Shown here: positions 12,801 to 45,180 of the stretch, one piece after another | How the letters are laid out: every line of letters begins with the position of its first letter | How positions within the stretch are numbered: position 1 is the first letter of the stretch | From: a virus | Virus record (IMG/VR): IMGVR_UViG_3300032770_000004 | Span: 1 to 47,374 of that record | Direction: 5' to 3' (one strand) | Length of the DNA stretch: 47,374 bases | Notes under the pieces: generated by a model | Told to the model about the DNA's origin: nothing | Databases searched by the model: none | Seen by the model: the letters and a program-made list of their open reading frames with translations, nothing else | Made by a program: the position numbers and the translations under genes

Positions 12801-13209
12801 CTCCGACCGTAGCAATGAGAATTACCTAGTGGATCCAGAAAACAACACTCTTCGTCTGATTGACCACAACATTCTTTTTGACAACGCTCCTCGTCATACG
12901 GCAACTCCAATGTATTGGTCAGACCACGAGATGAGCAATATGATTCCTTTGGATTCTTCACAGCTACATCCTGCCGCAGTTCAGTGGGCACACTCCCTTA
13001 AGCCTGATGAGCTAGAATCTATGTTGCGCCGTTACGAGGTTCCAGACGAGCTGGTACAAGGAACTAGAAGGAGACTTGAAAAACTTCAGGGACATTTGAA
13101 GCATCGACCGAATTCTGATCGCGAATCTGCGTGGGTGATTCCACAGGCCCTAGCAGACATGCCTGATGACATTCAAGCAAAGTACTCCAATGAACCGGAG
13201 AAAGAATGA
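9811..13209 (+). CDS. Prohead protease fused to HhH-GPD glycosylase-like and PI3/4K/HipA-like kinase domains
   Basis: N-term FASEHIDSSGE..NYEH..GFSIEG..VALT (HK97-type protease); EVRGIAPKLS..VVPDTHFTR (HhH-GPD); VYVK..E..GNSDRSNENYL..LIDHN (kinase). Confidence 0.8.
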   Translation: MSTGLLLDGVFASEHIDSSGEILDIKGLDITDFDEGKGLANYEHKGHDGNSNGEEIVGKIIFARKIFKQSDCTNEREKMFWDKVGLPFLYGIVRLYDGAGHEGAKALAAIIRDSHANDEPIIVGFSIEGSTLEKDSKTNRLVRCIARKVALTVRACNKMAISGLLADPNAPEGYEKFPVKPDLLAMVPVAKQTIAKKSEADPMYIRLGGSEAVYGSEITKAMTAGSYNAAPGTLSGGAALQVEDRTRKALAMAALRDWDKVTPFRKFIKHRMPDASDEFLDHFSDLVERHMFRVKKAEEVITSLAKAGKLKSPREAGIAAKPKEEPRLTIQGRAVPKSMVTKTTFDPKSGQLFTPKGIFQAQTPSAVHPHLARHMRANGMDPSRSGQLFANEVAKSRDAHKRAMNNWFNVNQKFVNGNIDPGLVSHAVAFALMSPGVPVPMQETMYGHFVDSLKSRGLASIVNPKDWDAVYKDWMARNRSGLPQHSRQHFLDLEKEIRSKNGAFIGFNKPDKFAEYFSGYLKDHHNDIVDAIRQAKGDAHPVARRLTEVRGIAPKLSRYLLGMMGAGNMVVPDTHFTRHLFGARPDAPGSQPGSSPDSESQNYLKHALLGTGGAHDVLEGIDDWYLRNHDAVKHLLADPEMGPYFKGRENQAIFPAFWSHWISIPGHEAAVGTPNRWAQNAGTDHAPFWDAVAPMLQKSENYDADLPMRTAMQHRRWVEQYGPVHALGLYYQYLVPRLQANDALRGQEMVRKFQSIDVDLRKAVRESTTPNEERQPERVKFRGHTVSPGEMFPHKDRSKRFSVLGTDPKEFTVVPSEKLHSYTHQDMLRIPRAEAGDYRILRYPETLEEPLVVNALTHGVGEYNTHPEVQNLVHGFNFGYPKESALQGSRAETSFWSKTPNGQRVYVKAAPEEGSFNEARKEGVYSALAREYFGLGKYVPRVGVVRHPKTGQEHAIIEHMPGEEFAPEDPAHEGVLNRLNDSGELDKLGLMDMIMGNSDRSNENYLVDPENNTLRLIDHNILFDNAPRHTATPMYWSDHEMSNMIPLDSSQLHPAAVQWAHSLKPDELESMLRRYEVPDELVQGTRRRLEKLQGHLKHRPNSDRESAWVIPQALADMPDDIQAKYSNEPEKE

Positions 13210-17171: not shown

Positions 17172-18566
17172 ATGATCGGATCTGAAGTTACACAGGCTCT
17201 GCTTAAGGCACTCGAAGCAGGCTCTTACAATGCCGCCCCCCAGACCCTGGTTCAGGGCTCTTCGCTGCAAATCGAGGATCTCTCGGGCGTGATGCAGCTG
17301 GTCACTTTTGATGACTCGCACATCAAGCTCCAGAAGATGCTTAAGGTCGAGTCTTGCAAGAGCACTCTTGCTCAGTTCGATCGTCAGCTGAGCTACGGTA
17401 TCTTTGGTGGTTCTGCCCAGCAAGAAGGTGCAGTTGGACAGGAAGAAGACAGCCAGTTCGTACGTATCGTGGTCCCCATGGCCTTCTACTCGCACGTTCG
17501 TCGTGTGACTGTAGTTGCCAACATGGTTCAGACCGTCGATGGTGTGAAGGCTGAAGACCGTGCCGCTCGCGACGCTGCTATCAAGCTCTCGGCTGATATC
17601 GAATTCGACCTTTTCCGTGGAAAGGCCGACTTCAGCAACGCAGGCGTGTTCGACGGTAACATGAGCGTAATTCCCGCTCTGCCCAACATTCTCGGTCTGG
17701 ATGCCCAGATTCGTATGTCGGACAGCGAGCGCAACGCTCAGGACTTGATGTTCGCAGAGTACGGCTCGTCTCAGACTGCCGTCACCCAGGTTGGTTCGAC
17801 TCTGACCCAGGATGCTATCGAAGACTCGCACGTCAAGAGCACCATGCAGCACGGTAACGCTGATCGCCTCCTGGTTGATCCTCTCGTTCTGTCTGCATAC
17901 AACAAGATTTCGTTCGGTAAGGAACGCATCGTTCTCGCTGGTTCGCCTCAGGACGCTACGTCTGCTGAACTGAAGCGCCAGTGGGTGTCTGGTGGTACTG
18001 TTTCGATTGAAGCCTCGCGCTTCCTCTCGGGCAAGACCTCGCCTGCTGCTCCTCGCTCCAATGGTCCCGGTGCCTGTGTTTCGGCTGTAGGCGCTAACTC
18101 GCCTGCCGGTACTTCGCTCGGAGCTGGTGCGTATTACTACGCCGCTACCGCCGTGAATGAACTGGGTGAAAGCCCGGCCGTGTTCAGCTCGGTAGTGAAC
18201 GCTTCCGCCGGAGATCAGGTGCAGTTGACCATTACTCCTCCTGGTTCGGGCACTGTGCGTTACTTCAACGTGTACCGCACCAAGGCTGGTGGTGCTGCTT
18301 CGAGCGCCAAGTTCATCGGTCGTATTGCTAACTCCGGTTCGGCAACTACCGTGTTCGTCGACTTGGGCAACAAGCTCCCTGGCTTCGTCACTGGATTCCT
18401 CGTTCAGGGTGACACTATGGCGATGAAGGAACTCTCTCCTTACAGCCGCATGAAGCTCGCTGTTACGGATCTCAGCCTGCCTGAAGCGCACTTCCGCTTC
18501 TGCACTCTCGCCGTAATGCAGCCCCGCAAGAACGTCCTTCTGGACAACCTCATCGGCGCGTTCTAA
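17172..18566 (+). CDS. Major capsid protein (HK97 fold) with FN3/Ig-like insertion
   Basis: 464 aa, highly biased codons, strong SD; N-term KALEAG..SLQIEDL like SPO1/Twort-type capsids; YYYAATAVNELGES..YFNVYRT insertion; followed by terminator. Confidence 0.85.
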   Translation: MIGSEVTQALLKALEAGSYNAAPQTLVQGSSLQIEDLSGVMQLVTFDDSHIKLQKMLKVESCKSTLAQFDRQLSYGIFGGSAQQEGAVGQEEDSQFVRIVVPMAFYSHVRRVTVVANMVQTVDGVKAEDRAARDAAIKLSADIEFDLFRGKADFSNAGVFDGNMSVIPALPNILGLDAQIRMSDSERNAQDLMFAEYGSSQTAVTQVGSTLTQDAIEDSHVKSTMQHGNADRLLVDPLVLSAYNKISFGKERIVLAGSPQDATSAELKRQWVSGGTVSIEASRFLSGKTSPAAPRSNGPGACVSAVGANSPAGTSLGAGAYYYAATAVNELGESPAVFSSVVNASAGDQVQLTITPPGSGTVRYFNVYRTKAGGAASSAKFIGRIANSGSATTVFVDLGNKLPGFVTGFLVQGDTMAMKELSPYSRMKLAVTDLSLPEAHFRFCTLAVMQPRKNVLLDNLIGAF

Positions 18567-20700: not shown

Positions 20701-20959
20701 AATCGCAGTAATGTACGCCGATGCCGGTGACGAACCGTATGTTGTCATCTATTCCAGCAAGAGAGATGCTTGGGACAAAGCCAAACTGTCGATTCCTCAA
20801 AAGGAACGTCGCAAAGCCAAGAAAGCGCTATTCAGCCCCACATGGCGTGGAGCTACCGGTTGGCGTACAAAACACGGACTCGTCATGATCATTACCAAGG
20901 AGTACATGAAGGACCGTATCGAAGAATGGAAACGATACCTCAGATACATGGACTCTTGA
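20690..20959 (+). CDS. Hypothetical protein
   Basis: GGAGG SD, overlaps upstream stop. Confidence 0.6.
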   Translation: MKNKIAVMYADAGDEPYVVIYSSKRDAWDKAKLSIPQKERRKAKKALFSPTWRGATGWRTKHGLVMIITKEYMKDRIEEWKRYLRYMDS

Positions 20960-21127
20960 CAAGCTCGAAATGAGTGATAATCTACGAACCATGAAGATGC
21001 ACCTACCTACAGTCCAAAAGCCAGAAGCCATTGCGGCCACGGTGGAGGTACGTATGTAAGGTCCAGGATACTAGCTGTAACGGTACCTGGACCCATCCGA
21101 TCGAAAGATCTGGTGGGTTTTGTTTTT

Positions 21128-21198
21128 CTGGAGATGCGGTAACAGTAACCACTACGCGTCGGAAGCGTAAATTCTGGGTGCAATTCCCAGTCTCCAGA
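21128..21198 (+). tRNA. tRNA-Pro(CGG)
   Basis: CTGGAGA/TCTCCAG acceptor; TACGC-gtCGGaa-GCGTA. Confidence 0.75.
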
Positions 21199-21225
21199 CT
21201 GATCAACAGATCAAAAATTGAATAC

Positions 21226-21297
21226 GCTCCCTTCGTTTAGTTAGCAAGACAGGGCCCTCGTAAAGCCAATTCGGAAGTGCAATTCTTCCAAGGAGCA
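21226..21297 (+). tRNA. tRNA-Thr(CGT), degenerate
   Basis: ctCGTaa loop; mismatches in stems. Confidence 0.55.
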
Positions 21298-21298
21298 C

Positions 21299-21374
21299 TT
21301 GACAGTAGATCTAGAAGTTGTAGAATACTCGTCACCTCAGAACAACGGTTCCGAGGTTCTTTGACAACTGAATA
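21299..21374 (+). promoter_or_regulatory. tRNA-operon promoter (TTGACA-16-TAGAAT) plus boxB-like hairpin and boxA (GTTCTTTGACAACTGAATA)
   Basis: Same order and consensus as rrn leader antitermination elements. Confidence 0.7.
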
Positions 21375-21385
21375 CGTAGTTTTTT

Positions 21386-21456
21386 GGGTCTGTCGTCTAA
21401 CGTTTAGGACAGCGCCGATAAGGCGTTTATGGGTGGTTTAACTCCCCCCAGACCCA
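21386..21456 (+). ncRNA. tRNA-like RNA with 5-nt anticodon loop (GATAA)
   Basis: GGGTCTG/CAGACCC acceptor, D and T arms present; GCGCC-gataa-GGCGT. Confidence 0.65.
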
Positions 21457-21460
21457 CTTT

Positions 21461-21548
21461 GCTCGCTGGTGTATCGATCCAGCACGCCGGTTTACATTAC
21501 AAATATGTAGACAGGTAGACCGTGGTTCAACTCCACGGGCGAGCACCA
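21461..21548 (+). ncRNA. tRNA-like RNA with ~11-bp extended anticodon arm and encoded CCA
   Basis: GCTCGCT/GGCGAGC-ACCA; CCGGTTTACAT-tacaaat-ATGTAGACAGG; T-loop TTCAACT. Confidence 0.65.
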
Positions 21549-21549
21549 T

Positions 21550-21622
21550 GGAGTTATTGTGTAATGGCTAGCACCCCGGTCTCTTAAACCGCGCAGTCAG
21601 GGTTCGAATCCCTGTAACTCCA
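21550..21622 (+). tRNA. tRNA-Lys(CTT)
   Basis: Cloverleaf; ctCTTaa. Confidence 0.85.
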
Positions 21623-21623
21623 C

Positions 21624-21752
21624 TGATCTGAATGCTCGATTGGATTACATCTCTGCTAAAGATCTAGACCGGTTCAACTCCGGAACAGGGCACTCAATGC
21701 CCTTTTAGTGTAACGGTAGCACAGCAAACATCTAGTCAATTTTGTCAGGTCA
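21624..21752 (+). ncRNA. Y RNA-like (YrlA-type) #1 with permuted tRNA module
   Basis: TGATCTGAATGC..TACAT..T-arm CCGG-TTCAACT-CCGG, loop-closed acceptor AGGGCA-ctcaa-TGCCCT, D-arm, ..TTGTCAGGTCA. Confidence 0.75.
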
Positions 21753-21814
21753 CCTTAATTACTCAGCTAACGCAGGCATCGATCTTGCGTGACTGGTCGG
21801 AGAGACGATCGTTT

Positions 21815-21885
21815 GGGCTAATAGTATAGCGGGAATACGTTGCGCTGGCAGTGCAAAGTTCAGGGTTCGACTCCCTGTTGGTCCA
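21815..21885 (+). tRNA. tRNA-Ala(GGC)
   Basis: G3:U70; ctGGCag. Confidence 0.88.
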
Positions 21886-21886
21886 C

Positions 21887-21944
21887 TGGAGAATGCCTGA
21901 AGGTTTACATACGGCAAAAAGAAACTTTCAAATCCTTGTCTCCA
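21887..21944 (+). ncRNA. Y RNA-like #2 (minimal, no tRNA module)
   Basis: TGGAGAATGC-CTGAAGGTT-TACAT...AACTTTCA-AATCCTTGTCTCCA. Confidence 0.65.
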
Positions 21945-21954
21945 TTTGTTTTAT

Positions 21955-22023
21955 GCCCTGGTAGCTCAAAAGTAGAGCGCCAGTCCTAGACTGGAGGTTG
22001 GAGGTCCGAACCCTCCTCGGGCA
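21955..22023 (+). ncRNA. tRNA-like RNA with 5-nt anticodon loop (cCTAg)
   Basis: Canonical D arm TAGCTCAAAAGTAGAGC; CCAGT-cctag-ACTGG. Confidence 0.65.
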
Positions 22024-22026
22024 CTT

Positions 22027-22098
22027 ACCTGCTTAGTTCAGTAGCAGAACAGCGGCATCACAAGCCGAAGATCGCTGGTGCAAATCCAGCAGCGGGTA
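22027..22098 (+). tRNA. tRNA-Val(CAC)
   Basis: Cloverleaf; atCACaa. Confidence 0.78.
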
Positions 22099-22099
22099 C

Positions 22100-22213
22100 T
22101 AGAGAATGCGGTAGAGAATACATCCTCCACTCTTACGGGGGACGTAGGGTTCAACTCCCTCGACTTTCCCTACTAGATATTGGAACGCAAGACGGTCTTG
22201 CAGTTTGTTTTTC
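22100..22213 (+). ncRNA. Y RNA-like #3 (divergent, contains a T-arm)
   Basis: GAGAATGC-GGTAGAGAA-TACAT..AGGG-TTCAACT-CCCT..TTCCCTACT..TTGTT. Confidence 0.55.
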
Positions 22214-22235
22214 AATGAAGTATGTTGTCTCTTAT

Positions 22236-22312
22236 GGGGTACGGGGCTGCATGGGGTGGCCGCCAAGCTTGCACCTTGGAATTTCAGGTCGGTTCGATTC
22301 CGACGTGCTCCA
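22236..22312 (+). tRNA. tRNA-Ala(TGC)
   Basis: G3:U70; CCAAG-ctTGCac-CTTGG. Confidence 0.85.
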
Positions 22313-22316
22313 CAAA

Positions 22317-22380
22317 GCTGAATGCAGGTAGAATTACATGGAATTGTTATCCCAGAATACATTTTATCGATCTTGTCAGC
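22317..22380 (+). ncRNA. Y RNA-like #4 (minimal)
   Basis: GCTGAATGC-AGGTAGAAT-TACAT...ATTTTATC-GATCTTGTCAGC. Confidence 0.65.
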
Positions 22381-22386
22381 CCTTTT

Positions 22387-22458
22387 TGTTCCAGAGTCTG
22401 TGAAGATAGACAGAGGATTCATATCCCTCTTAAGTTGGTGCAAATCCAACTGGAACAA
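22387..22458 (+). tRNA. tRNA-Met/Ile2(CAT)
   Basis: TGTTCCA/TGGAACA; GAGGA-ttCATat-CCCTC. Confidence 0.6.
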
Positions 22459-22459
22459 C

Positions 22460-22598
22460 TACTCGAATGTCCGTAAAGGTCTACATTCTAACACCGAGGG
22501 TTGGAGCGTCGAGAACTCCCGCCGCAATCTTACGCGGCGTAGCTCAAAGGTAGAGCATCGGTCCCGAAAGGGGTTGACTTTTCAAATTTTGTCGAGTA
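22460..22598 (+). ncRNA. Y RNA-like (YrlA-type) #5 with permuted tRNA module
   Basis: TACTCGAATGT..TACAT..CCGA, T-like arm, CGCCGC-aatcttac-GCGGCG, D arm TAGCTCAAAGGTAGAGC, TCGG..TTGTCGAGTA. Confidence 0.75.
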
Positions 22599-22605
22599 TT
22601 CATAC

Positions 22606-22678
22606 GGTCGGTTAGCTCATGTGGTAGAGCGGCGCCTTTACACGGCGAAGGTCGTGGGTTCGAATCCCTCACCGACTA
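22606..22678 (+). tRNA. tRNA-Val(TAC)
   Basis: Canonical cloverleaf; ttTACac. Confidence 0.9.
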
Positions 22679-22679
22679 T

Positions 22680-22782
22680 GGGGAAGTCGTCTAACAGGAT
22701 AACCCTCCGCAAGGAGAATAAGTAAGACACCGTAACAGCCCTCCTAGGCACGGAGTCGTTGGTGCAAATCCAACCTTCTCCA
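22680..22782 (+). ncRNA. tRNA-like RNA with D-loop hairpin insertion, aberrant anticodon arm and Ala-type acceptor
   Basis: GGGGAAG/CTTCTCC-A (G3:U70, A73); CTCC-gcaa-GGAG in D loop; CCGT..GCC-ctccta-GGC-ACGG. Confidence 0.6.
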
Positions 22783-22891
22783 CTTGAAGTACTAAAGCCT
22801 CCTGACGAAAGAGCCGTTGGCACTAGCGGCTTGATCACTAAATAACTAGAAAACCCTTTGCTGGGGAGGGGCCAAGAACCCAGCGTAGTTT

Positions 22892-22963
22892 GCTCCCGTA
22901 GTACAATAGATAGAACGCAGCCCTGCGAAGGCTGAGATCCAGGTGCGATTCCTGGCGGGAGTA
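22892..22963 (+). tRNA. tRNA-Arg(GCG)
   Basis: CAGCC-ctGCGaa-GGCTG. Confidence 0.8.
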
Positions 22964-23063
22964 CAACGCGATCAATCCAAAAAGATTGCGCCAGTCGCTG
23001 GTGAAGGCCGTTAACCTCACTGGCGCAGCCCGCGAAATGTGACGGCTAGAGTAGCGGGTGTTT

Positions 23064-23140
23064 GGTCCCGTATCAGACCGAGCTTCGAACTCGGATCTTG
23101 TAATTGGATGAAAATGTAGGTTCGAGCCCTATCGGGACTG
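23064..23140 (+). tRNA. D-armless tRNA-Arg(TCG)-like
   Basis: GGTCCCG/CGGGACT-G; no D arm; CCGAG-ctTCGaa-CTCGG; long variable region; T arm. Confidence 0.6.
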
Positions 23141-23146
23141 CCTTCG

Positions 23147-23209
23147 AAGTGCCAGTTGCTTTGCGCTAATTGCCATGCGATAGTGACATATGAGAGACGA
23201 TTTGAATGA
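23147..23209 (+). pseudogene. C-terminal remnant of an HNH endonuclease
   Basis: Translates KCQLLCANCHAIVTYERRFE*, matching KCQVVCANCHAERT of the 23915 and 46347 HNH genes. Confidence 0.7.
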
Positions 23210-23219
23210 GGAAGAAAAT

Positions 23220-23290
23220 GCTCTGTTAGTTCAGTGGTAGAACGACGGTATGACTCACCGTAGGAGCTGGTTCGATTCCAGCACAGAGTA
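23220..23290 (+). tRNA. tRNA-Val(GAC) with atypical loop
   Basis: ACGGT-atGACtc-ACCGT; pyrimidine at position 37. Confidence 0.65.
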
Positions 23291-23320
23291 CTTCGAACGC
23301 GAGATCGAAAACAAAATTGA

Positions 23321-23392
23321 GTCGCTATCGGCTAGGAGTAAGGCTGTCAGATTCTCAATCTGAAGACCTGGGTGCGAATCCCAGTAGCGATA
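23321..23392 (+). tRNA. tRNA-Glu(CTC)
   Basis: TCAGA-ttCTCaa-TCTGA. Confidence 0.85.
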
Positions 23393-23396
23393 TGAA

Positions 23397-23468
23397 GCGC
23401 CTATCGTCCAAAGGCTAGGACACAGACCCGATAAGTCTGATATGTTGGTTCGACTCCAACTAGGCGTA
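23397..23468 (+). tRNA. tRNA-Ile(GAT)
   Basis: CAGAC-ccGATaa-GTCTG. Confidence 0.82.
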
Positions 23469-23682
23469 CATGCACGACCGATAGAACCGGACACACGAAA
23501 CCGGCAAGGTAGGTTCGTAAAGTGGCTTCTACTGCTCCACGTGCAAAAGGTAGAGGACTACAGTCCCTAAGATTGTCGAGCTGATCGCCGTAAGAGGATC
23601 AGGAACACGAGCTGAATGGATTTTCAGGCCTCTCCGGCTACGCGAGGATTAGGGGGTTCGATTCCCTCCGTTAAGTTTCTTA

Positions 23683-23743
23683 GCCGAATGCTCGTAAGTC
23701 TACATTTACTTAAAAATAAACGACTTACAAAATACTTGTCGGC
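23683..23743 (+). ncRNA. Y RNA-like #6 (minimal)
   Basis: GCCGAATGC-TCGTAAGTC-TACAT...GACTTAC-AAAATACTTGTCGGC. Confidence 0.68.
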
Positions 23744-23748
23744 ATTTT

Positions 23749-23821
23749 CTGGGTGAGGTGCATACGGGTGCATACACGGTCGGGATCCGTGGGGGAGCTG
23801 GTTCGATTCCAGCCACTCAGA
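23749..23821 (+). tRNA. tRNA-Pro(GGG)
   Basis: CACGG-tcGGGat-CCGTG. Confidence 0.78.
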
Positions 23822-23825
23822 CTAG

Positions 23826-23897
23826 CAGGGAATGCGGTAATGGCTAACCACTACGTTTTGGATACGTAAATTCTGGGTTCGAATCCCAGTTCCCTGA
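23826..23897 (+). tRNA. tRNA-Pro(TGG)
   Basis: TACGT-ttTGGat-ACGTA. Confidence 0.82.
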
Positions 23898-23914
23898 CAA
23901 GTAATCTTGGAACC

Positions 23915-24244
23915 ATGGCAAAGGTTTCCAAGGAGTATTACCGAGACTGGTATCAAAAGAACAAGGATCGGATTAAAGGACGCAAGAAAGAAGCTCGACA
24001 GAGAGCACGAGCTAAACTTCGTGCGATCGTGGATGTAGCCAAGCAGATTCCGTGTAAGGATTGTGGCGTTCAGTATCCACCATATGTAATGACTTTCGAT
24101 CATCTTGGTGACAAGAAATTTAATGTTGCGGACCTTGGTGGAGTGAGCATTGACGCCCTAAAGGCCGAAATCGCTAAGTGTCAAGTGGTCTGTGCTAATT
24201 GCCATGCTGAAAGAACTCATCGTAGGCGTATTGACAAAGGCTGA
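23915..24244 (+). CDS. HNH endonuclease
   Basis: PCKDCG..FDHL..KCQVVCANCH. Confidence 0.85.
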   Translation: MAKVSKEYYRDWYQKNKDRIKGRKKEARQRARAKLRAIVDVAKQIPCKDCGVQYPPYVMTFDHLGDKKFNVADLGGVSIDALKAEIAKCQVVCANCHAERTHRRRIDKG

Positions 24245-24265
24245 TTTGGATGCTACATTGACACC

Positions 24266-24412
24266 ATGGAAAACGATCTCCGCAATCTTGATTGGGGCGA
24301 GGGGATGAATCAGGCACTGTCGGCGGATCTCAAGGTCGACATTGCGGGCAATCAGGCCCAACTGACTTTGGAGCTGCTCAAGGCTCTGGATCGGAAGAAG
24401 GCCAAAAACTGA
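24266..24412 (+). CDS. Small hypothetical protein (48 aa)
   Basis: Behind TTGACA(24231)-17-TACATT; MENDLRNLDWGEG...RKKAKN*. Confidence 0.55.
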   Translation: MENDLRNLDWGEGMNQALSADLKVDIAGNQAQLTLELLKALDRKKAKN

Positions 24413-24421
24413 GGTACTGAA

Positions 24422-24670
24422 ATGGCAACGTACGCAATTTTTTATGATCATGGCGTCTATGAATATGGTTACGCGACCATGGAGGACGCCGCCAATGAAT
24501 TGGCAGGTCTTACTAACCCCGAGCGATTCTACATAGCTGAATGCTGCCCTGGCAGCACTGCTTACTGTGAAGATGCTGAAAAAGGAAAGTGTCCTTTTTG
24601 TGATCTCGGGGAACAGGACCCCATTGACCCTCAGGACATCGCGGCGTATGATAATGAGGTTGATCTGTAA
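24422..24670 (+). CDS. Hypothetical Cys-containing protein
   Basis: GAGG SD; CC..C..CPFC. Confidence 0.6.
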   Translation: MATYAIFYDHGVYEYGYATMEDAANELAGLTNPERFYIAECCPGSTAYCEDAEKGKCPFCDLGEQDPIDPQDIAAYDNEVDL

Positions 24671-24679
24671 GTAACACTC

Positions 24680-24758
24680 GTCCGGATGGTGGAACGGCAG
24701 ACACGGTGGCCTTAGAAGCCACTGCGCAAGCGTGAGGGTTCGAATCCCTCTCTGGACA
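24680..24758 (+). tRNA. tRNA-Leu(TAG)
   Basis: GTGGC-ctTAGaa-GCCAC. Confidence 0.88.
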
Positions 24759-24827
24759 CTGCGCTCTTAGCCCGAGGCGCGCGATATAAAATTCGGTCAC
24801 TTCGTTGGTGCAGAAGAGCATCATAAT

Positions 24828-24898
24828 GGCGGTATCGTCTAGTGGTAGGACACGAGACTTTCAATCTCAGAACCGGAGTTCGATTCTCCGTATCGCTA
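24828..24898 (+). tRNA. tRNA-Glu(TTC)
   Basis: ctTTCaa; canonical D and T arms. Confidence 0.88.
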
Positions 24899-24948
24899 CT
24901 GTAGTAATGTGCTAACTGTCATCGTGACAGGACGCATAGACAAGAAAT

Positions 24949-25019
24949 TGCCGACAAGCATTAAAGTGATGCAAGGGCCTTTGAAGCCCTGGAACTGGGC
25001 GCAATACCTAGGTCGGTAG
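24949..25019 (+). tRNA. tRNA-Gln(TTG)
   Basis: U1:A72, G73; AGGGC-ctTTGaa-GCCCT. Confidence 0.78.
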
Positions 25020-25024
25020 CTTTT

Positions 25025-25095
25025 GCTCCTATCGGTTAACGGCAGGCCACGGTCTTGGTAAGACTGAAGTCAAGGTTCAATTCCTTGTGGGAGCA
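25025..25095 (+). tRNA. tRNA-Thr(GGT)
   Basis: CGGTC-ttGGTaa-GACTG. Confidence 0.85.
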
Positions 25096-25184
25096 TGTAA
25101 GTTAGGCGTAAGATCGATTGAGAACCGTCCTAACACAGTGGGTGACGATGCGGATCGCAACCGTACGGAATACTCCCACAATTT

Positions 25185-25258
25185 GCCTCATTAGCTCAGT
25201 GGATCAGAGCTGACGCCTTCTAAGCGTATGGTCGGGAGTTCGATTCTCTCATGAGGTG
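25185..25258 (+). tRNA. tRNA-Arg(TCT)
   Basis: ctTCTaa; canonical. Confidence 0.9.
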
Positions 25259-25263
25259 CTGAT

Positions 25264-25337
25264 GTCCCTATAGCTCAGTGGAAAAGAGCAACGCGGTCCT
25301 AACGCGATGGTCGGGAGTTCGATTCTCTCTGGGGATA
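25264..25337 (+). tRNA. tRNA-Arg(CCT)
   Basis: gtCCTaa; paralogous to Arg(TCT). Confidence 0.85.
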
Positions 25338-25399
25338 TAGCCTAGCTTAGATCGGCACGGCGTCTAGCTAGGGCCGCTCGAAAATTGAGCCGTGCTTTC

Positions 25400-25471
25400 G
25401 CCCGTAAAAGATAGGTAGCGATCATCAAGCCTTGTAAACTTGAAAGTTCGGCGCAAGTCCGAATATGGGCA
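25400..25471 (+). tRNA. tRNA-Thr(TGT)
   Basis: GCCCGTA/TATGGGC; ctTGTaa. Confidence 0.7.
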
Positions 25472-25510
25472 CTCCTTGACAAAAACTACGTATTCAGTTA
25501 GACTCTAGCC

Positions 25511-39993: not shown

Positions 39994-40065
39994 AGCGGCT
40001 TGGCAGAATAGTTATGCAGCAGCCTCTGAAGCTGCCTTAAGTTGGTGCAAGTCCAACAGCCGCTG
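39994..40065 (+). tRNA. tRNA-Gln(CTG)
   Basis: GCAGC-ctCTGaa-GCTGC. Confidence 0.85.
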
Positions 40066-40762: not shown

Positions 40763-40764
40763 TG

Positions 40765-41050
40765 AAGTAGGTGCGACGATCGCTAGGACTGTATGTCTAG
40801 AGGAAAGTCGGGGCTCCGTAAGACACGATACCGGTTAACGGCCGGGTGGCAGTAATGTTACGCAACCTGCAACAGTGACGAACCGATTTAGTTCGGGTGA
40901 AACGGGCAGACTATCGGGAGCAAGCTCGAAACGGGATGGTCCGTCTGGCCATAATCCCAGGTTGAGTGCTTGAGGGATGTGGTAACATATCTCCTAGACG
41001 AATGATCGTCCCTCGCAAGAGGAACAGAACCCCGCTTATGGCCTACTACT
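40765..41050 (+). ncRNA. rnpB: RNase P RNA
   Basis: GAGGAAAGTCGGGCT (CR-I), GCAACAG, GTGAAACGG, CCTAGACGAATGATC, ACAGAACCCCGCTTAT (CR-V); terminal P1 pairing. Confidence 0.92.
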
Positions 41051-41053
41051 TTT

Positions 41054-44568: not shown

Positions 44569-44772
44569 GTATCTGGTGCTGCGGTATAATTATCAAATGG
44601 GTGATTTCGCGTGGGAAGGACCATATCGCGCCGCCTCGGCACGTGCTGCGGTCGAGCGTTTCACCGAAGGAAAAGCTAATTGGGCGAATGGCCCACGCAT
44701 CGTGAAAGTTGTGAGTAGTGGGGAGCTACTAGAATTTCACCTACAAAAGAACCACATCAAGGAGATCGAGAA

Positions 44773-45180
44773 ATGAGCACGCACGCAAGTATTGCAGTTG
44801 AGCACGAGGACGGAACCATTAGCGCTGTCTATTGCCACTTTGATGGCTACCTGAGTGGTGTAGGCAAGGACTTGGTGGCACACTTCAACAGCCTCAAGGC
44901 GGCCGAAGAGCTGATCAAGAAGGGCGACTTGAGTGGGACCAACAGTTCCGAGGGCAAGCCCAAGTACTACACCGACGACGGCGAAGATTTCGAAGACGTG
45001 AAGCCGCGTTTTTACCAGAACCTCGGGGAATATCTGAAGAAGATCGGTGATGACATTTGCGGCGAGTACGACTACCTTTTCACTGATGGTGAGTGGAAGG
45101 TGCTTTCGAACAGCCGAGTCCGCCTCAAGAACACCAGTAAGCTGATCCCCGTGAAGAACGCCGAAGAGGTTGATGAGTGA
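44773..45180 (+). CDS. Conserved phage protein (ST.a.I..YCHxDGY family)
   Basis: MSTHASI..YCHFDGY..VG..L..EYDYLF. Confidence 0.75.
   Translation: MSTHASIAVEHEDGTISAVYCHFDGYLSGVGKDLVAHFNSLKAAEELIKKGDLSGTNSSEGKPKYYTDDGEDFEDVKPRFYQNLGEYLKKIGDDICGEYDYLFTDGEWKVLSNSRVRLKNTSKLIPVKNAEEVDE

What the first reader, a model, noticed from the sequence alone, without database searches (positions are those of the whole stretch)
21386..22782. tRNA mimics with intact elbows but broken anticodon arms, interleaved with the Y RNAs
Seen: four genes keep paired acceptor, D and T arms but have non-decoding anticodon arms. These are 5-nt loops (21386 GATAA; 21955 CCTAG), an ~11-bp arm (21461, with encoded CCA), and a bulged arm plus D-loop hairpin (22680). 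Random decay would not be expected to spare every other arm. Inference: they are decoys or substrates for anticodon nucleases, RtcB/Rsr repair or other tRNA-shape sensors, forming one non-coding anti-defence module with the Y RNAs.
Basis: partly seen in the sequence, partly recalled or inferred. Interest (0 to 1): 0.75.

Follow-up and report, generated by a model that had tools for sequence, protein, structure and literature searches.

The report
Non-decoding tRNA look-alikes in a myxophage
A large uncultured relative of Myxococcus phage Mx1 carries, among its tRNA and Y RNA genes, tRNA-shaped RNAs that cannot read codons; two of the four are kept in related phages, so they are probably working RNAs, but what they do is untested.

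Summary
The window is the start of a 170-kb Mx1-like phage genome. All four elements exist at the stated coordinates.

- **m1 (21386-21456), m2 (21461-21548), m4 (22680-22782):** each folds as a clean cloverleaf with an anticodon arm that cannot decode.
- **m3 (21955-22023):** weaker. Its acceptor stem is imperfect and its lowest-energy fold is not a cloverleaf.
- **"Intact elbows":** not supported. m1 and its relatives lack G18G19 and C56.

Comparison with relatives:
- **m1** has a counterpart in another phage. A sister subfamily occurs in a third phage and in cultured Mx1. All have capped anticodon arms (loops GAUAA, GAAA, GAAA, GGUAA) and compensatory stem changes.
- **m4** has enlarged homologues (153 and 168 nt) at the same position in two relatives. 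All three keep G3:U70 plus A73, the alanine identity set.
- **m2** has no homologue that I could find.
- **m3** resembles a relative's near-normal tRNA-Lys and may be decaying.

Across the phages, 7 of 11 look-alikes encode a 3' CCA, against at most 4 of 147 ordinary tRNA calls.

So m1 and m4 belong to conserved, non-decoding tRNA-like RNA families. The decoy function is plausible but untested. The genome has no RtcB. The Ro60 gene, the large tRNA set and the m1-type RNAs occur together or not at all in five complete genomes.

The parts
21299..21326 (+). Sigma-70-type promoter (TTGACA, 16 nt, TAGAAT) about 60 nt upstream of m1
   Evidence: Best promoter match in 20900-25500, 11 of 12 positions. 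A similar TTGACA/TTGACG box sits at the same place, after tRNA-Thr(CGU), in L081 and L080.
21386..21456 (+). m1: tRNA-like RNA of subfamily A1, with a 6-bp anticodon stem capped by the 5-nt loop GAUAA and no encoded CCA
   Evidence: Rfam tRNA 39.2 bits. Cloverleaf lowest-energy fold, z = -3.6. Reciprocal best match to L080 16985-17059. Stem pairs tabulated.
21461..21548 (+). m2: tRNA-like RNA with an anticodon arm of about 11 bp, a 7-nt loop without U33, and an encoded ACCA; tRNA-Lys(CUU) follows after 1 nt
   Evidence: Cloverleaf lowest-energy fold, z = -4.2. The model built from it (R1) finds no homologue in 24 loci or in the rest of the genome.
21955..22023 (+). m3: degenerate tRNA-like gene with a 5-bp stem, a 5-nt loop CCUAG and an imperfect acceptor, 3 nt before tRNA-Val(CAC)
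   Evidence: Rfam tRNA 39.8 bits, with a 2-nt gap in the anticodon loop and a 1-nt gap in the acceptor 3' strand. Lowest-energy fold is not a cloverleaf, z = -1.9.
22680..22782 (+). m4: expanded tRNA-like RNA of class D, with a D-loop insertion (GCAA-capped hairpin), a bulged anticodon arm, G3:U70 and A73
   Evidence: Rfam tRNA 32.7 bits. The model built from it (R2) finds L081 13573-13723 at 36.8 bits, E 7e-7. Segment check and pair table.
21550..21623 (+). tRNA-Lys(CUU), the ordinary tRNA right after m2
   Evidence: ARAGORN, Rfam 56 bits. Syntenic with the tRNA-Lys(CUU) and the following Y RNA in L080.
22027..22099 (+). tRNA-Val(CAC), the ordinary tRNA right after m3
   Evidence: ARAGORN, Rfam 58 bits.
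22606..22678 (+). tRNA-Val(UAC), the ordinary tRNA 1 nt before m4
   Evidence: ARAGORN, Rfam 60.5 bits.
22474..22586 (+). Best YrlA-like Y RNA of the interleaved set
   Evidence: Rfam YrlA 33.4 bits, E 1e-4 to 1e-6, below the gathering score of 69.

Best explanation
m1 and m4, and probably m2, are working RNAs shaped like tRNAs that take no part in decoding. m3 is more likely a tRNA gene in decay.

Proposed mechanism, with each step marked as shown or inferred:

1. They are transcribed with the neighbouring tRNAs and Y RNAs from the promoter at 21299. This is inferred from the promoter match and the 1-4 nt spacing.
2. They are cut out like tRNAs, by RNase P at the 5' end and by trimming at the 3' end. 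This is inferred from established knowledge that an acceptor stem plus T arm is enough for RNase P to cut.
3. In most family members they end in a CCA written in the gene. This is shown.
4. Their anticodon arm is a closed, very stable helix with a GNRA-type cap or an expansion. It cannot pair with a codon and has no normal anticodon loop for a nuclease to cut. The structure is shown by the sequence and by covariation; the consequences are inferred.

My best guess at the function is that they work off the ribosome as tRNA-shaped ligands. They would bind host proteins that recognise the acceptor, T arm and CCA half of tRNA. These could be tRNA-directed defence nucleases or toxins, processing or modification enzymes, or, for m4, alanyl-tRNA synthetase. 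The effect would be that of a decoy or competitor during infection. This step is inference only.
For: **Conservation of the non-decoding arm.**
- m1 and L080 16985-17059 are reciprocal best matches (R3 45.3 bits).
- Outside the anticodon arm I counted them 42 of 54 identical by hand, from the segments checked.
- Their arms share no alignable sequence, yet both are fully paired (6 bp + GAUAA, 8 bp + GAAA).
- A sister pair, L081 13143-13215 and Mx1 44788-44861, has 7 bp + GAAA and 5 bp + GGUAA.
- In all four, every acceptor, D and T pair is a standard pair. Acceptor positions 3 to 7 and T positions 2 and 3 show changes on both sides.

**Class D (m4).** The three members lie at a syntenic position, after tRNA-Val/Met and before tRNA-Arg(GCG). 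All stem pairs are standard, the T stem and acceptor positions 4-7 covary, and G3:U70 with A73 never changes. The L080 member has the same acceptor stem as that phage's tRNA-Ala(GGC).

**Encoded CCA.** 7 of 11 look-alikes against at most 4 of 147 ARAGORN tRNA calls, Fisher p = 2e-7.

**Tetraloops.** All three tetraloops that cap anticodon stems are GNRA (GAAA, GAAA, GUGA). A random tetraloop has a 1 in 32 chance of that.

**Stability.** m1, m2 and m4 fold better than shuffled sequence, z = -3.0 to -4.2.

**What decay looks like.** L010 12756-12830 keeps only the acceptor and T arm.

**Context.**
- The genome has a strong promoter upstream, its own RNase P RNA, a nucleotidyltransferase of the CCA-adding type and Ro60.
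- Several of the phage tRNAs have unusual anticodon loops, 8 of 132 without U33. Variation of this kind has been proposed as escape from anticodon nucleases (PMC10264068).
Against: - No expression, processing, binding or charging data exist.
- The comparison rests on 3-4 sequences per family, aligned by hand. MAFFT misaligned them, so no formal covariation statistic was run.
- The single-sequence models score ordinary Glu and Ile tRNAs as high as the family members, so common descent of all four class A members is not proven.
- m1 itself lacks an encoded CCA. Its loop equals the tRNA-Ile loop minus 2 nt, which a recent deletion could also produce.
- m2 has no homologue.
- m3 looks damaged.
- Nothing points to a particular target protein, and no defence nuclease of the unknown host has been identified.
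- Class A lacks the canonical elbow nucleotides, so proteins that read the elbow may not bind it.
Confidence: 0.5

Rival explanations
1. All four are plain tRNA pseudogenes left over from rapid turnover of the tRNA array, with no function of their own.
For: - tRNA content varies widely between close relatives, from 7 to 35 or more genes, so genes are gained and lost often.
- m1's loop is the tRNA-Ile loop minus nt 32-33.
- m3 has an imperfect acceptor and a weak fold. Among its closest matches by sequence, and next to its syntenic position in L081, is a gene with a 7-nt UUU loop.
- m2 has no homologue.
Against: - Counterparts of m1 and m4 in phages whose flanking DNA no longer aligns keep every stem paired through changes on both sides.
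- The anticodon stems are longer and more stable than in tRNAs and are capped by GNRA loops.
- Encoded CCA is enriched (p = 2e-7).
- m4's insertions are structured and shared between relatives.
- A truly decayed copy looks different (L010 12756-12830).
Confidence: 0.12
2. They are processing punctuation. The tRNA-shaped modules exist only to give RNase P and 3' nucleases cutting sites that release the neighbouring Y RNAs and tRNAs from one long transcript.
For: - Spacing to neighbours is 1-4 nt.
- One strong promoter lies upstream.
- The phage has its own RNase P RNA.
- From my own knowledge, tRNA-like elements act as processing signals for mascRNA/MALAT1, for the MHV68 tRNA-miRNA units and for mitochondrial transcripts.
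Against: - Real tRNAs already flank every Y RNA, so extra modules are not needed.
- Punctuation needs only the acceptor and T arm, yet the D and anticodon arms stay perfectly paired and the anticodon arms are strengthened.
- A conserved encoded CCA and the Ala identity pair are not explained.
Confidence: 0.13
3. Class D (m4), and perhaps others, are charged with an amino acid. m4 would take alanine through G3:U70 and serve as a non-ribosomal aminoacyl carrier, or would act on alanyl-tRNA synthetase, EF-Tu or ribosome-rescue pathways.
For: - G1-C72, G2-C71, G3:U70 and A73 do not change in the three class D members while positions 4-7 vary.
- The L080 member shares its acceptor with tRNA-Ala(GGC).
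- The two relatives encode CCA.
- Established knowledge: AlaRS charges acceptor minihelices that carry G3:U70.
Against: - m4 itself has CUU, not CCA, after A73.
- No enzyme that depends on aminoacyl-tRNA was looked for or found nearby.
- L081 carries a true tmRNA as well, so class D is not a tmRNA substitute.
- Class A has no G3:U70.
Confidence: 0.15
4. They are partners or substrates of the phage Ro60/Y RNA system, for example RNAs handed to host PNPase or bound in the Ro60 ring.
For: - They share an array with six Y RNA-like genes.
- Ro60 and class A are both present in this genome and in Mx1, and both absent in three complete relatives.
- m2's arm holds the 9-mer GGUUUACAU, which is also in Y RNA unit 2.
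- A phage Ro60 with Y RNAs binds host PNPase (PMC12135203).
Against: - The co-occurrence is confounded with the presence of the large tRNA set.
- None of the four has the GAAUGC/CGAA 5' motif or the permuted YrlA topology.
- The 9-mer occurs 4 times in the genome against about 1.3 expected, so it is only a weak signal.
Confidence: 0.1

Closest known systems
YrlA-type bacterial and phage Y RNAs (Rfam RF02553; PMC4201824; phage Ro60-Yrl complex PMC12135203)
   Same: - Non-decoding RNAs with tRNA-like D and T arms.
- Found in phages that encode Ro60.
- In M. smegmatis, YrlA is cut by RNase P and receives CCA.
- Here they lie in the same array as YrlA-like genes.
   Different: - YrlA is circularly permuted: its ends lie in the Ro60-binding stem and its acceptor is closed by a loop.
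- m1 to m4 have normal tRNA topology, with open acceptor ends, and the anticodon arm is the closed part.
- They have no CGAA/GAAUGC motif and no YrlA hit.
Small stable RNAs of the phage T4 tRNA cluster (species 1 and 2, also called RNA C and D).
   Same: Non-tRNA stable RNAs encoded inside a phage tRNA gene cluster. They are co-transcribed and processed with the tRNAs, and their function is still unknown.
   Different: No sequence relation was tested. The T4 RNAs are not described as full cloverleaves with capped anticodon stems.
Phage tRNAs with altered anticodon loops that escape anticodon nucleases (PMC10264068)
   Same: Phage tRNA-cluster genes whose anticodon loops depart from the host's. 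Several true tRNAs here also lack U33.
   Different: Those tRNAs still decode. The look-alikes here have 4-5 nt loops or expanded arms and cannot.
tmRNA tRNA-like domain (RF00023)
   Same: Class D has G3:U70, A73, a T arm, an encoded CCA in the relatives, and a non-decoding replacement of the anticodon arm.
   Different: - No tmRNA hit over the cut-off, and ARAGORN finds no tmRNA.
- A real D stem is present.
- No tag reading frame was seen.
- L081 has a separate true tmRNA.
Eukaryotic and viral tRNA-like small RNAs (mascRNA, RF01684; MHV68 viral tRNA-like RNAs). Properties recalled from memory.
   Same: Cloverleaf-like RNAs processed by the tRNA machinery. They receive CCA but are not used in translation.
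   Different: Different domain of life and no homology. The mascRNA model hits only true tRNAs here, and only weakly.

Membership tests
tRNA (Rfam RF00005) | Scores at or above the curated gathering score of 29 bits | tested here: met
   m1 39.2, m3 39.8 and m4 32.7. m2 is the exception, with no hit at E up to 10.
tRNA (functional decoder) | 5-bp anticodon stem with a 7-nt loop, U33 and a purine at position 37 | tested here: not met
   m1 has 6 bp + 5 nt. m2 has about 11 bp + 7 nt with A at 33. m3 has 5 bp + 5 nt. m4 has a bulged arm with a 6-nt loop. ARAGORN at default settings calls none of them.
tRNA (canonical elbow) | G18 G19 in the D loop and U54, U55, C56 in the T loop | tested here: not met
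   m1: no GG, and U56. m2: a single G in the D loop, with a canonical T loop. m3: a single G, and C55. m4: GG is present, but position 55 is G (sequences). Eight accepted tRNAs of this phage also have G55.
YrlA Y RNA (RF02553) | Permuted order (stem, T arm, closed acceptor hairpin, D arm, stem) with the conserved 5' CGAA-type motif | tested here: not met
   No YrlA hit overlaps m1 to m4 at E up to 10. Their ends lie in the acceptor stem. The GAAUGC motif occurs only in the six Y units.
tmRNA (RF00023) | tRNA-like domain with G3:U70 plus pseudoknots and a tag reading frame; detected by Rfam or ARAGORN | tested here: not met
   m4 has G3:U70 but no tmRNA hit, and ARAGORN -m finds nothing. L081 has both a class D RNA and a true tmRNA.
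tRNA pseudogene | Stem-breaking changes build up, and the defect is not conserved in relatives | tested here: inconclusive
   Not met for m1 and m4: their counterparts keep all stems and also keep non-decoding arms. Met in part for m3: acceptor mismatch and deletion. Cannot be judged for m2, which has no homologue.
Substrate of alanyl-tRNA synthetase (class D only) | G3:U70 wobble pair with A73 in an acceptor helix ending in CCA | tested here: met
   G3:U70 and A73 are present in all three class D members. CCA is encoded in L081 and L080 but not in m4. Actual charging cannot be tested with these tools.
Decoy for anticodon nucleases or other tRNA-directed defence enzymes | Binds or absorbs the enzyme and protects the phage | not testable with these tools
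   No sequence feature defines this class, and the host and its defence genes are unknown.

The most novel reading that the evidence does not exclude
Mx1-like phages carry at least two conserved families of purpose-built tRNA mimics. Class A would be an uncleavable, CCA-ended tRNA body that blocks host tRNA-directed defence enzymes. Class D would be an alanine-accepting tRNA-like RNA with expanded D and anticodon domains that works off the ribosome. Together with Ro60, the Y RNAs, a phage RNase P RNA and a CCA-adding-type enzyme, they would form one RNA-based counter-defence toolkit.
Probability: 0.2. Interest if true: 0.85.

Novelty: new variant of a known kind. Interest (0 to 1): 0.62.

Why it matters
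Phage tRNA clusters are usually read as codon supplements, or more recently as replacements for tRNAs that host nucleases have cut. Conserved members of such clusters that cannot decode at all point to a third role, in which the tRNA shape is itself the active part. One family member lies in the cultured phage Mx1 (44788-44861, not annotated in the GenBank record). That makes the question testable in Myxococcus xanthus. Class D would also be a natural example of a heavily expanded tRNA body that keeps the alanine identity pair.

Tried and rejected
- **BLAST against phages and relatives.** Megablast of 20900-25500 against GenBank phages found nothing. blastn of the cluster against 140 related loci found only a few tRNAs and one Y RNA, so orthology had to be read from synteny and structure.
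- **Home-made cloverleaf scanner.** It gave about 500 hits in 170 kb, nearly all noise, and I dropped it.
- **MAFFT alignments.** Those of the families (A1, A2, A3, A7) were out of register in the anticodon arm or the 3' acceptor strand. I therefore did not run the count of structure pairs or fold_alignment. I tabulated pairs from hand segmentation, checked letter for letter against the sequences.
- **Single-sequence models.**
  - R1 (m2) found no homologue.
  - R2 (m4) found the L081 member but not the larger L080 member, and nothing in four further complete genomes.
  - R3 (m1) scores Ile and Glu tRNAs as high as family members, so it cannot define the family.
- **IMG/VR pattern scans.**
  - Class D: three matches, none a clear class D member. 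One is a tRNA-Ala-like gene with an extra hairpin in an unrelated phage, one overlaps an ordinary tRNA-Tyr call, and one has no tRNA features.
  - Class A T arm: nothing.
  - m2's arm and 3' end: only chance palindromes or nothing.
- **m4 as tmRNA:** rejected.
- **m2's arm as a Ro60 site:** rejected for lack of the CGAA/GAAUGC motif. The shared 9-mer is only weakly enriched.
- **m3 as an amber suppressor:** relaxed ARAGORN calls CUA. I rejected this because it needs a 4-bp stem and a loop with C33.
- **The look-up of encoding contigs was closed.** The only known near relative, a Logan contig of 15,956 bp carrying capsid protein P0002 at 90% or more identity, could not be fetched.
Full report
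**Setting**

The window is the first 47 kb of a 169,962-bp IMG/VR virus record with direct terminal repeats. Its major capsid protein (17172-18566) is 61% identical to that of Myxococcus phage Mx1. Closer uncultured relatives reach 73-82% identity.

From 21128 to 25338 the + strand carries a dense array of RNA genes:
- 18 tRNAs called by ARAGORN;
- further tRNA-model hits;
- six units that begin with GAAUGC...UACAU. Three of these give sub-threshold YrlA hits of 33.4, 26.5 and 25.3 bits against a gathering score of 69.

A second tRNA cluster starts at 39994 and includes a bacterial-type RNase P RNA (154.9 bits). Elsewhere the genome encodes a TROVE/Ro60 protein and a nucleotidyltransferase of the CCA-adding family. 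It has no RtcB and no tmRNA.

**The observation**

All four elements are present at the stated coordinates.

| Element | Coordinates | Rfam tRNA | Anticodon arm | Other features | Fold z-score |
|---|---|---|---|---|---|
| m1 | 21386-21456 | 39.2 bits | 6-bp stem, 5-nt loop GAUAA | clean cloverleaf; T stem has one bulged U | -3.6 |
| m2 | 21461-21548 | no hit | 3+8 bp, 7-nt loop without U33 | cloverleaf; canonical T arm; encoded ACCA; tRNA-Lys(CUU) starts 1 nt later | -4.2 |
| m3 | 21955-22023 | 39.8 bits | 5-bp stem, 5-nt loop CCUAG | acceptor has a mismatch and a 1-nt deletion; lowest-energy fold is not a cloverleaf | -1.9 |
| m4 | 22680-22782 | 32.7 bits | 4 bp, 4-nt internal loop, 3 bp, 6-nt loop | 32-nt D-loop insertion with a GCAA-capped hairpin | -3.0 |

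(Rfam scores; m4 anatomy.)

The statement that the elbows are intact does not hold.
- m1 has no G18G19 and has U at position 56.
- m2 and m3 have one G in the D loop.
- m3 has C55.
- m4 has G55.

m1's best paralogue in the window is tRNA-Ile(GAU) at 23397, whose loop is CCGAUAA. m1's loop is the same minus nt 32-33. One recent deletion could produce that picture.

DNA similarity outside the tRNAs is essentially gone, but gene order is kept in the two nearest relatives with enough sequence. These are L081 (82% capsid identity) and L080 (78%). Both have the promoter box after tRNA-Thr(CGU), and both share the series Lys, Val, Arg(GCG), Val(GAC), Glu(CUC).

*Class A (m1 and relatives).*
- L080 16985-17059 is the reciprocal best match of m1 among about 150 tRNA-like sequences (R3 45.3 bits).
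  - It shares m1's D arm, which begins UCGU.UAA.
  - It shares the unusual GGGUGG/CCCCC T stem with a bulged U.
  - Outside the anticodon arm I counted the two as 42 of 54 identical, by hand from the segments checked.
  - Its anticodon arm has a different sequence, 8 bp capped by GAAA.
- A second pair is L081 13143-13215 and Mx1 44788-44861, the latter not annotated in GenBank.
  - Their 5' thirds are 22 of 25 identical (hand count from the same segments).
  - Their arms are 7 bp + GAAA and 5 bp + GGUAA.
- In all four RNAs every acceptor, D and T pair is a standard pair. Acceptor positions 3-7 and T positions 2-3 change on both sides.
- Three of the four encode ACCA. m1 does not.

*Class D (m4 and relatives).*
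- L081 13573-13725 (153 nt) and L080 17964-18131 (168 nt) sit directly after a tRNA and, in L081, directly before tRNA-Arg(GCG), as m4 does.
- Their lowest-energy folds are expanded cloverleaves. The D stem encloses a multi-hairpin insertion, with a GAAA cap in L081. The anticodon stem opens into a three-way junction.
- The two larger members share sequence in the D insertion, and m4 looks like a reduced version.
- All stem pairs are standard, and the T stem and acceptor positions 4-7 covary.
- G1-C72, G2-C71, G3:U70 and A73 never change.
- The L080 member has exactly the acceptor of that phage's tRNA-Ala(GGC).
- Both relatives encode CCA. m4 has CUU instead.
- The m4 model finds the L081 member at E 7e-7. 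It finds nothing comparable in four other complete genomes, including Mx1.

*m2.* Neither the loci nor the rest of the genome holds a homologue. Its 3' half resembles the L081 class A member: about 72% identity (hand count from the alignment), compensatory T-stem changes, and the same ending GAGCACCA (R1 19.4 bits, E about 0.03). That is only a hint.

*m3.* Its matches are ambiguous.
- By sequence its top matches are ordinary Val, Ile and Thr tRNAs.
- L081's 'tRNA-Lys(UUU)' at 13060 ranks fifth. It shares m3's rare T loop starting UCC, has a 7-nt loop with A33, and encodes CCA.
- That gene lies two genes before tRNA-Val(CAC) in L081, close to m3's syntenic position.
- L080 16905-16979 (5 bp + GUGA, encoded CCA) is another match.

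Since one candidate counterpart keeps a 7-nt loop and m3's own acceptor is damaged, decay is at least as likely as function for m3.

**Patterns across the set**

- Seven of 11 look-alikes encode CCA, against at most 4 of 147 ARAGORN calls in the same sequences (Fisher p = 2e-7).
- All three tetraloops capping anticodon stems are GNRA.
- The two pentaloops are GAUAA and GGUAA.
- A copy that really has decayed, L010 12756-12830, keeps only the acceptor and T arm.

Ro60 and class A are both present in this genome and in Mx1. Both are absent from three complete relatives that also have only 7-11 tRNA hits. The sample is small and confounded with the size of the tRNA set.

**What this most likely is**

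- m1 and m4 belong to two conserved families of tRNA-shaped RNAs under selection for an L-shaped body with a closed anticodon arm.
- m2 fits the pattern (perfect fold, encoded ACCA) but stands alone.
- m3 is doubtful.

What is shown:
- the structures;
- their conservation and covariation;
- the CCA enrichment;
- the alanine identity set in class D;
- the genomic context.

What is inferred:
- co-transcription from the promoter at 21299 (11 of 12 match);
- release by RNase P and 3' trimming;
- action off the ribosome.

I favour a role as tRNA-shaped ligands for host proteins that read the acceptor, T arm and CCA half, acting as decoys or competitors. I put about 0.75 on 'functional RNA' for m1 and m4, and about 0.3 on the decoy mechanism specifically. 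Some true tRNAs here lack U33, which fits pressure from anticodon nucleases as proposed in PMC10264068. This is context, not proof. The rival readings are charging of class D with alanine, processing punctuation, partnership with Ro60, and plain pseudogenes; they are weighed in their own sections.

**Comparison with what is known**

Phage Ro60 with Y RNAs is established (PMC4201824; PMC12135203). YrlA is a permuted tRNA mimic, and the elements here are not members of that family: they have the wrong topology, no motif and no hit. They are not decoding tRNAs and not tmRNA.

The nearest analogies are the unexplained small stable RNAs in the T4 tRNA cluster, and tRNA-like RNAs such as mascRNA or the MHV68 viral tRNAs. 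Both analogies are recalled from memory. My four literature searches on tRNA-like RNAs, phage tRNAs and phage Ro60 found no description of phage tRNA-cluster genes with GNRA-capped anticodon stems and encoded CCA. The Mx1 genome announcement reports only 22 tRNAs (PMC10720576). I class this as a new variant of a known kind, the tRNA-mimic non-coding RNA.

**Limits**

- Families have three to four members, aligned by hand.
- No formal covariation statistic was run.
- There are no expression data.
- The host is inferred only from similarity to Mx1.

Noticed in passing
window 40764-41053 (+): A bacterial class A RNase P RNA (Rfam 154.9 bits, whole model matched in only 290 nt) lies directly after tRNA-Leu(CAG) in the second tRNA cluster. 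A phage-encoded RNase P RNA seems unusual; one literature search found no report of one.
   Followed up: partly
window, tRNAs at 21128, 21226, 22027, 22892, 39994, 40248, 46248 (and 23321): Eight accepted tRNAs have the T loop UGCRAxU (G at position 55 instead of U). Seven of the eight also lack the GG pair in the D loop, while almost all tRNAs with UUCRAxU have it. This looks like a covarying alternative elbow.
   Followed up: partly
window 23397-23469 and 23749-23822; L081 13060-13139: True tRNAs without U33: Ile(GAU) has loop CCGAUAA, Pro(GGG) has UCGGGAU, and in the relative L081 Lys(UUU) has UAUUUAA plus an encoded CCA. Across the phages compared, 8 of 132 ARAGORN calls lack U33.
   Followed up: partly
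window 23064-23140 (+): A fifth odd tRNA-like gene (Rfam tRNA 33.5 bits). It has an acceptor, a T arm and a normal-looking anticodon arm (loop CUUCGAA, anticodon UCG), but no D stem and a variable region of about 21 nt. It is not part of the finding.
   Followed up: no
window 22387-22458 (+): A tRNA-Met/Ile2-like gene (CAU anticodon, 7-bp acceptor, the same T arm as m4) that is missed by default ARAGORN and by the Rfam tRNA model. It is found by relaxed ARAGORN and by model R2. In L081 and L080 a tRNA-Met(CAU) directly precedes the class D RNA.
   Followed up: partly
window 22738-22749 (loop of m4's anticodon-position hairpin) and 22705-22716: m4's terminal loop reads CUCCUA, like the anti-Shine-Dalgarno end of 16S rRNA. 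Its D-loop hairpin pairs CUCC with GGAG. This could be chance.
   Followed up: no
L081 16808-17170; L065 14103-14498: Two relatives carry a true tmRNA (115.9 and 138.5 bits), while this genome has none over the cut-off.
   Followed up: yes
L001 25588-25651 (Mx1 44587-44650): Mx1 has a 63-nt tRNA-like gene whose anticodon arm is cut down to about 10 nt (3 bp plus a 4-nt loop), with Rfam tRNA 31.5 bits. This is another non-decoding tRNA shape in a cultured phage.
   Followed up: partly
window 23915-24244 (+): An ORF of 109 aa inside the tRNA array contains a ...CANCH... motif typical of HNH endonucleases. A similar stretch lies in L080. It was not run against Pfam.
   Followed up: no
L147 3970-4084 (IMGVR_UViG_3300020213_000034): An unrelated phage tRNA cluster holds a tRNA-Ala(UGC)-like gene with a normal anticodon arm and an extra hairpin of about 40 nt inserted between the acceptor and the D arm.
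   Followed up: no
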